From Octopus vulgaris (taxonomy: Eukaryota), in assembly GCA_951406725.2 (NCBI GenBank), contig OX597833.1, positions 70,432,001 through 70,496,000 of the forward strand: 64,000 bases of DNA, given 5' to 3'. Below, one piece after another: positions 52,786-53,240 of this stretch. The notes under the pieces are model-generated. The model did no database searches. It saw only the letters and a program-made list of their open reading frames with translations, and had not been told where the DNA came from. Every line of letters starts with the position of its first letter. Position 1 is the stretch's first letter. The translations under genes were made by a program, and so were the position numbers.

Positions 52786-53240
52786 TATGGCCAGCTGGAG
52801 GAGTGTGTCCTCCTGGGGCTAAAAACTACAGTAGCATCCACCCTTAGGGGTTAGCCATATTGAAATGGCAAAAATACGTCACGATGTGTTACCGCTACTG
52901 TATATAACTCACTTTGATATTTATCATTGTTTGATTTCACTTTTTCAATATCAGCGACAGTGGACGCTGGAAAAAGTATAAGTATTTGTGAAGGAAATCT
53001 AATTCTCGCCGACAACTATGATTGTCACACGCTGACGAGAGGTCAATACCTCGAAACTCGAGTCCGTGTGTATCATAAGTTGAAGACGGGAAGGATGACT
53101 TCCCTTTGCAAATACTGACAGGACACAGATAGTGTGTCTATGGCCAGCTGGAGGAGTGTGTCCTCCTGGGACTAAAAACTACAGTAGCATCCACCCTTAG
53201 GGGTTAGCCATATTGAAATGGCAAAAATACGTCACGATAT
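52786..53240 (+). mobile_element. Retrozyme-like / non-autonomous Penelope-type element: 353-nt monomer plus ~100-nt terminal repeat
   Basis: Direct repeats tatggccagctggaggag...aatacgtcacgat at ~52786-52884 and ~53139-53238; HHR between them; (TA)n on both flanks; another 3'-end copy at ~57433-57512. Confidence 0.75.
53026..53070 (+). ncRNA. Minimal type I hammerhead ribozyme, canonical core
   Basis: cacacg-CTGACGA-GAGG tcaata CCTC-GAAA-CTCGAG-TC-cgtgtg: stems I and II perfect, palindromic stem III, GUC triplet at 53062-53064; stem I extends imperfectly to caactatga/tcataagttg. Confidence 0.9.

What the first reader, a model, noticed from the sequence alone, without database searches (positions are those of the whole stretch)
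52786..53240. 353-nt ribozyme monomer with ~100-nt terminal redundancy: footprint of a circular or tandem RNA template
Seen: near-identical ~100-nt direct repeats exactly 353 nt apart, a textbook HHR (53026-53070, GUC) between them, (TA)n on both flanks, and a second fragment at ~57433-57512 ending at the same atacgtcacgat(AT)n point. Inference: a ~1.3-mer copy is expected if RT starts at a fixed point and runs past one full turn of a 353-nt circle, or copies a pLTR-like partial tandem.
Basis: partly seen in the sequence, partly recalled or inferred. Interest (0 to 1): 0.78.

Follow-up and report, generated by a model that had tools for sequence, protein, structure and literature searches.

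The report
Ribozyme circle bearing Penelope insertion signature
This is one of several hundred young copies of a 353-base, protein-free repeat that carries a hammerhead ribozyme motif; the copies end at two fixed points and are uniform within each insertion, so they were likely copied round a small, probably circular, RNA by a Penelope-type jumping-gene enzyme, a route proposed before but not shown.

Summary
Observation confirmed. The 453-nt piece is a 1.28-mer of a young 353-nt type I hammerhead repeat, an animal non-LTR retrozyme (470 exact copies of the cut-site 28-mer). In 96 insertions, arms run up to 6 units, start anywhere, and mostly end at site A or at site B, 43-46 nt further on. Of 49 inverted two-arm insertions, 40 pair A with B, 9 have one off-site arm, none are A+A or B+B. 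This is the Penelope 'tail', matching two reverse-transcription starts shown in vitro. Targets are (TA)n; two non-repeat targets carry 12-13 bp duplications. Units within an insertion share alleles (6 of 424 comparisons mixed, 181 expected), which points to a one-unit template, likely a circle; a few insertions show multimer templates. No RNA was tested and no autonomous partner was pinned down. The scan noted a similar 302-nt case in another genome, judged a Penelope tail-end; here no arm was seen to continue 5' into a Penelope ORF as its own upstream part. Known class, with new mechanistic footprints.

The parts
52786..53238 (+). Whole insertion: 1.28 monomers of the 353-nt retrozyme, single arm, ending at site A; first and last 2-3 bases are ambiguous with the (TA)n target
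52886..53238 (+). One full monomer written to end at site A (coordinate frame 1-353 used in this report); longest stop-free frame 66 aa, no match to the two Pol III box patterns tried
52786..52885 (+). 5' partial unit (monomer 254-353): the 'terminal redundancy', i.e. the random 5' truncation point of this copy
53026..53070 (+). Type I hammerhead motif: helix I 6 bp, helix II 5 bp, helix III 2 bp with palindromic loop; predicted cut after 53064 (monomer 179)
   Evidence: Rfam RF00163, E 6.5e-6; compensatory changes against the old subfamily
53235..53238 (+). Site A, the 3' end of this insertion (monomer 350-353); inferred first reverse-transcription start
52886..52931 (+). 'Tail' between site A and site B (monomer 1-46); site B at 52928-52931 is the second fixed 3' end in other copies, here internal
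52827..52902 (+). Predicted multibranch domain of three hairpins closed by a 9-bp helix; site A lies in the loop of the last hairpin; candidate RT-binding and initiation domain
   Evidence: prediction; closing helix 90% paired across young and old copies
52742..52788 (.). (TG)n/(TA)n left flank, target microsatellite
53237..53274 (.). (TA)n right flank, target microsatellite
57433..57512 (+). Second insertion, sense arm (monomer 274-353, 95% identical), ending at site A
57395..57431 (-). Second insertion, inverted arm ending at site B (older sub-type); makes this a minimal A+B two-arm insertion

Best explanation
The stretch is a 5'-truncated copy of a young 353-nt hammerhead repeat family (non-LTR retrozyme) that was likely inserted by the reverse transcriptase-endonuclease of a Penelope-like element (PLE) copying a one-unit, probably circular, RNA. 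Shown: tandem 353-nt arrays at dispersed sites, random 5' ends, two fixed 3' ends 43-46 nt apart, A+B pairing in inverted insertions, (TA)n targets, allele uniformity within insertions, and several PLE families in the same genome with the same architecture. Inferred: (1) arrays with two or more hammerheads are transcribed, self-cleave as dimers and are ligated to a 353-nt circle; (2) the PLE protein binds the hairpin domain around site A and nicks AT-rich DNA on both strands about 12-13 bp apart; (3) one nick primes at A and the other at B on the same RNA, each copying a random length, often past one full turn; (4) the two cDNAs are joined at their truncated ends, or only one (mostly A) is kept, as in this window. 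The window copy holds one hammerhead only, so it could not make a circle by double cleavage itself.
For: Copy number: 470 exact matches of a 28-mer across the cut site and 418 of a 27-mer across site A, controls 0. Architecture of 96 insertions: two-arm A+B 40, A+off-site 5, B+off-site 4, A+A 0, B+B 0; one-arm A 37, B 6, other 4; the pattern held in the first 56 regions and in 43 regions fetched afterwards. 126 of 148 arms run through the cut site and 50 through it at least twice, so the template was not a linear cut-to-cut monomer; 1 of 195 crossings has an indel. At 7 segregating sites 6 of 424 site-by-insertion comparisons are mixed against 181 expected, over 11 haplotypes; in the second set 0 of 85 two-arm comparisons were mixed. 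19 rare variants occur in every copy of their insertion, 13 of them in two or more units of one arm. Target duplications of 12-13 bp at the two two-arm insertions outside microsatellites (L270, L288). An older subfamily (about 70-75% identical) has the same A and B ends and compensatory changes in the hammerhead helices. RT plus GIY-YIG PLE families of this genome, two with full 781- and 784-aa frames, show (TA)n targets, inverted arms and 30-44 nt tails. In vitro a PLE protein cuts and extends both strands and starts at two internal RNA sites that bound the tail (PMC11167929).
Against: No RNA was observed: cleavage, ligation and circles are untested. The in vitro PLE study found unprocessed RNA the main substrate and no reads ending at the cut, and 8 of 9 Xenopus retrozyme dimers did not cleave in vitro. 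L266, L026 and L288 carry a variant in some units only but in both arms, and L009 is a mosaic, so some templates were heterogeneous multimers. The uniformity test assumes independent draws; a uniform source array also gives uniform daughters. No autonomous family with this sequence as its terminal repeat was found in 127 + 29 PLE loci. The hammerhead scores below Rfam's gathering cut-off, and the predicted minimum-energy circle does not form the catalytic core (about 6 kcal/mol penalty). Most loci were picked by queries spanning the cut site, so the lack of 5' ends at the cut (1 of 148, 2.1 expected) is a weak test.
Confidence: 0.7

Rival explanations
1. Same family and same PLE enzyme, but the template is a linear, uncut tandem transcript; uniform arrays come from strand transfer across the terminal redundancy or from gene conversion, and the hammerhead plays no part in copying.
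For: Unprocessed RNA was the dominant substrate for a PLE in vitro. Unit-specific variants shared by both arms in L266, L026, L288 and the mosaic L009. Seamless cut-site junctions (1 of 195 with an indel) fit an uncut RNA as well as a ligated one.
Against: Such cases are few against 19 variants fixed in all copies of an insertion; units within insertions still differ at 0.39% of bases (159 of 41237), so conversion is not keeping them uniform; linear copying with 5' truncation cannot lengthen arrays; the hammerhead is kept with compensatory changes between subfamilies.
Confidence: 0.2
2. The copies are 3' tail-ends of an autonomous PLE whose terminal repeat happens to be a tandem of 353-nt units.
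For: Tail, inversion and (TA)n targeting are PLE traits; retrozymes are related to pLTRs in Xenopus; three insertions abut PLE coding pieces (L002, L258, L277).
Against: Arms extend 5' into more monomers, up to 2125 nt; none of 127 + 29 PLE loci has the repeat as its own 3' terminus; the three junctions involve two different families, non-canonical ends, and in L277 a PLE piece more diverged (5.4% from family majority) than the retrozyme arm; PLE families 2 and 4 carry their own, different hammerhead-like motifs.
Confidence: 0.06
3. A DNA-level satellite or local duplication spread by unequal crossing-over or segmental duplication.
For: A few loci are duplicated with their flanks (L013/L014, L033/L034, L250/L252).
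Against: Dispersed over many contigs with unrelated flanks, fixed 3' ends, A+B rule, target duplications and conserved RNA structure.
Confidence: 0.02

Closest known systems
Animal non-LTR retrozymes (Cervera and de la Pena 2020, PMC7229834; mussel 350-390 nt, axolotl 331/353 nt)
   Same: Short non-coding tandem repeat with a type I hammerhead with weak palindromic helix III, low GC, no LTR, longer target duplications, co-occurring with PLEs.
   Different: There circles were shown by northern blot; here none is tested. The sections read report no fixed 3' ends, tail or inverted arms, and a review (PMC7761336, passages) says no motif points to the mobilising element.
Xenopus retrozymes as non-autonomous PLE derivatives (Li et al. 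2026, 10.64898/2026.07.22.740005)
   Same: Same proposed partner class.
   Different: Their link is sequence homology to pLTRs and co-occurrence in vertebrates; here no homologous pLTR was found and the link is the insertion signature. They suggest local array growth by unequal crossover; here arrays appear to be made at insertion.
Poseidon PLE of Anolis, PAc (Frangieh et al. 2024, PMC11167929)
   Same: Two adjacent internal RT starts bounding a tail, start in an AC-rich stem-loop downstream of a hammerhead, AT-rich target, both strands cut and extended.
   Different: PAc is autonomous and linear; they found no difference in start site between strands in vitro, whereas here the two arms of one insertion use different sites in 40 of 40 canonical cases.
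Canonical EN+ PLEs (Neptune-like) and Naiad/Chlamys, including non-autonomous Chlamys such as MRC1 (Craig et al. 2021, 10.1101/2021.04.23.441226)
   Same: Partial tandems, inverted 5'-truncated copy, tail on one end only, (TA)n preference.
   Different: Tail there is given as 30-40 bp, here 43-46; this element has no ORF and a canonical hammerhead, which Naiads lack.

Membership tests
Type I hammerhead ribozyme | Conserved core with helices I-III and an NUH triplet | tested here: met
   RF00163 over the full model, E 6.5e-6, 32.2 bits against a gathering score of 34; helices 80-91% paired with changes on both sides across young and old copies
Type I hammerhead ribozyme | Self-cleavage at the predicted site | not testable with these tools
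   Needs in vitro transcription of monomer and dimer
Non-LTR retrozyme | Tandem genomic repeats of 150-450 nt, each with a type I hammerhead | tested here: met
   353-nt period, 50 of 148 arms with two or more cut sites
Non-LTR retrozyme | No coding capacity and no LTR organisation | tested here: met
   Longest stop-free frame 66 aa; variable 5' ends rule out fixed LTR ends. PBS and PPT were not searched separately
Non-LTR retrozyme | Dispersed insertions with target duplications longer than 4 bp when present | tested here: met
   12-13 bp at L270 and L288; not definable inside (TA)n, which flanks 94 of 99 regions on at least one side
Non-LTR retrozyme | Expressed as stable monomeric circular RNA | not testable with these tools
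   Only fold prediction (z -5.7) and indirect genomic evidence
PLE-mobilised element | Tail on one end, partial tandems, inverted 5'-truncated copy | tested here: met
   40 A+B, 0 A+A, 0 B+B among 49 two-arm insertions; tail 43-46 nt, slightly above the 30-40 nt in print
PLE-mobilised element | Identified autonomous partner sharing its 3' end | tested here: inconclusive
   No shared terminal sequence in 127 + 29 PLE loci; family 5 is a lead only
Autonomous Penelope-like element | RT plus GIY-YIG ORF within the element | tested here: not met
   No ORF in the monomer; no PLE ORF continuous with the 5' end of arms except three irregular junctions

The most novel reading that the evidence does not exclude
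These insertions are genomic proof that a Penelope-type enzyme reverse-transcribes a ribozyme-made RNA circle by rolling round it, with a protein dimer priming the two target nicks at two different fixed sites (A and B) on one RNA molecule; the family gives a minimal 353-nt substrate for that reaction and explains both retrozyme arrays and the one-sided PLE tail.
Probability: 0.55. Interest if true: 0.72.

Novelty: new member of a known kind. Interest (0 to 1): 0.55.

Why it matters
How animal retrozymes enter new genomic sites is an open question: circles are known, and PLEs were proposed as helpers from co-occurrence and homology. This young family carries the PLE two-start signature and an allele pattern that needs a one-unit bottleneck. 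It names the exact start sites, the hairpin domain and the target geometry, so the rolling-circle model and the origin of inverted PLE insertions become directly testable in the existing in vitro PLE assay.

Tried and rejected
RNA evidence: the run search gave 'no RNA holder listed' (20 of 24 rows hold the stretch, none on record as RNA). Contigs of four runs were laid; one 383-nt contig (353 + 30) is a closed graph cycle, which tandem DNA gives as well, so it was not used. Expression, cleavage and circles remain open. Partner search: L130 looked like a PLE with the retrozyme downstream, but the other 29 fetched family copies and L130 itself end at their own terminus about 600 nt earlier, so it is a chance neighbour. 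L002 (family 4), L258 and L277 (family 5) are direct junctions, but none has both partners at canonical ends with matching age. The apparent mixed sites at monomer 319/320 are one deletion aligned two ways and were dropped, as were other indel columns; only substitution sites were pooled. Three regions duplicated with their flanks (L014, L034, L252) were dropped, leaving 96 of 99. The unconstrained consensus fold of young plus old copies did not recover the catalytic fold; the named structure was derived from the window copy, so its excess over controls is partly built in (pairs with a change on both sides 17 against 15.3 shuffled, not significant). No Pol III box pattern was found. Look-ups of earlier findings by sequence and by genome were blank.

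Full report
Observation. The two 100-nt repeats (52786-52885, 53139-53238) are 99% identical and 353 nt apart. A type I hammerhead matches Rfam RF00163 at 53026-53070 (E 6.5e-6, 32.2 bits, gathering 34), with the GUC ending at 53064. Both flanks are (TA)n. The monomer is far more stable than shuffles, linear or circular.

It is a family. The window lies in a 2.8-Gb genome in 227 contigs; the microsatellites and short interspersed repeats look to me like an octopus (recalled, not tested). A 28-mer across the cut site has 470 exact matches and a 27-mer across the 3' end point 418, with reversed controls at 0. I studied 99 regions: 56 from three similarity searches and 43 more, being all not yet sampled places among the first 100 listed matches. 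Three regions duplicated with their flanks were dropped, leaving 96. The first set is biased towards the queries; the second only towards an intact cut site.

Anatomy of insertions. Using a 1-353 frame that ends at the window's 3' end, arms are 31-2125 nt long, start at scattered positions and end at two places: site A (350-353) and site B (42-47), 43-46 nt downstream of A on the same strand. Of 49 inverted two-arm insertions, in which the 3' ends face outwards, 40 are A+B, 5 are A plus an off-site end, 4 are B plus an off-site end, and none is A+A or B+B. Of 47 one-arm insertions 37 end at A, 6 at B and 4 elsewhere. (TA)n flanks at least one side in 94 of 99 regions; the two two-arm insertions in non-repeat DNA (L270, L288) have 12-13 bp target duplications. 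The window copy is a one-arm A insertion; its 100-nt redundancy is only where copying stopped. The second fragment is a small A+B insertion, 57395-57512.

What the template was. 126 of 148 arms pass the hammerhead cut site and 50 pass it twice or more, with 1 indel in 195 crossings. A linear cut-to-cut monomer would stop 174 nt from A, so the template was a circle or an uncut multimer. To separate these I compared units within insertions. At 7 segregating substitution sites, 6 of 424 comparisons are mixed against 181 expected from allele frequencies, across 11 haplotypes. Both arms agree as well (0 of 85 mixed in the second set). Rare variants present in every copy of one insertion number 9 (against 242 single-copy differences including indels, and 5 partial) and 10 (against 68 and 2; 3 of the 10 also occur in a first-set locus); 13 of the 19 lie in two or more units of one arm. 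A new mutation can reach all units only through a one-unit stage, which a circle provides (inference). Against a pure monomer model, L266, L026 and L288 carry a variant in some units but in both arms, and L009 is a mosaic: some templates were multimers, and these cases suggest that both arms copy one RNA molecule. Strand transfer across a terminal redundancy would mimic a circle and cannot be excluded from DNA.

Selection on the RNA. An older subfamily, about 70-75% identical to the young one, has the same A and B ends and the same inverted form. Between the two, 8 of 110 predicted pairs change on both sides, 9 on one side and 15 break, the breaks mostly in one long helix; the hammerhead helices and their extension are 80-95% paired, and the helix III palindrome changes on both sides. 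The structure came from the window copy and the sequences are related, so the shuffle controls overstate this. Site A lies in the loop of a hairpin within a predicted multibranch domain.

The helper. A GIY-YIG search gave 150 matches from 6136 candidates. They fall into several PLE families; three checked proteins have RT and GIY-YIG domains and a fourth has RT only at the threshold used. A cysteine linker suggests the Neptune clade (by the description; no tree was built). Families 1, 2, 4 and 5 insert in (TA)n with inverted arms and tails of about 38, 30, 34-38 and 43-44 nt, read by eye. None of 127 + 29 PLE loci has the retrozyme as its own terminus. Family 5 is a lead: its tail length is closest and two of the 43 second-set insertions are joined directly to it. 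But these junctions have non-canonical ends and the PLE pieces are more diverged, and a third junction involves family 4. The partner is not identified.

Comparison with print. Non-LTR retrozymes and their circles: PMC7229834 (parts 2-4 of 6 read: end of methods, results, discussion; its supplement could not be seen and may list further species or insertion structures). PLE origin: 10.64898/2026.07.22.740005 (parts 1-3 of 5 read; supplements not seen). Two internal RT starts, the tail, cutting of both strands and a predicted dimer: PMC11167929 (parts 1-2 of 4 read). Tail on one end, inversions, (TA)n: 10.1101/2021.04.23.441226 (passages). Canonical versus minimal hammerheads and dimer cleavage: PMC4209133 (passages). 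Model of rolling reverse transcription, and the statement that no motif identifies the helper: PMC7761336 (passages). Eight searches listed no paper, judged from the listings and the texts above, that describes this family or reports the tail, the A+B rule or within-insertion uniformity for a retrozyme; the library lacks most subscription journals and repeat databases. One earlier scan note on another genome (e1-7908855) judged a similar 302-nt case a PLE tail-end; I tested that reading here and it does not fit.

Verdict. A real, young non-LTR retrozyme: a new member of a known kind. PLE mobilisation is well supported by the insertion signature (about 0.9); a circular template is likely but indirect (about 0.65-0.7); cleavage, circles and the partner are untested. 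Interest 0.55, because the family turns a proposed life cycle into specific, testable predictions.

Noticed in passing
window 57523-57700, minus strand: Another hammerhead-like short repeat directly beside the second fragment; a similar motif occurs in L215. This copy has a changed core.
   Followed up: no
window 59640-60070, minus strand: Partial tandem with about 227-nt period between (TA)n runs, with a minimal hammerhead-like motif; similar pieces in L007 and L107. Likely a further retrozyme or pLTR family.
   Followed up: partly
window 48012, plus strand: Hammerhead-like core with a palindromic helix III.
   Followed up: no
window 9579-10020 and 56454-56756: 184-nt partial tandems; not examined for ribozyme motifs beyond the pattern scan.
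   Followed up: no
window 41256-41951, minus strand: Exon-like frame with a PLAT/LH2 domain (E 3.4e-20), probably a lipoxygenase-type host gene.
   Followed up: partly
window 35282-36681, plus strand: Two frames that resemble a retrotransposon endonuclease region (recalled); the one scanned had no Pfam match.
   Followed up: no
L130 2582-4980 and L137-L166: A PLE family whose 40 best copies are 99-100% identical, so very recently active, with its own hammerhead-like motif and 30-nt tail; another family has many intact 781-aa ORFs.
   Followed up: partly
L002 1386, L258 1610, L277 1430: Direct junctions between retrozyme arms and PLE coding or 3' pieces without (TA)n spacer; either template switches or insertion next to PLE ends.
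   Followed up: partly
L266: One variant runs in the same order from the 3' end in both arms, consistent with both arms copying one multimeric RNA.
   Followed up: partly
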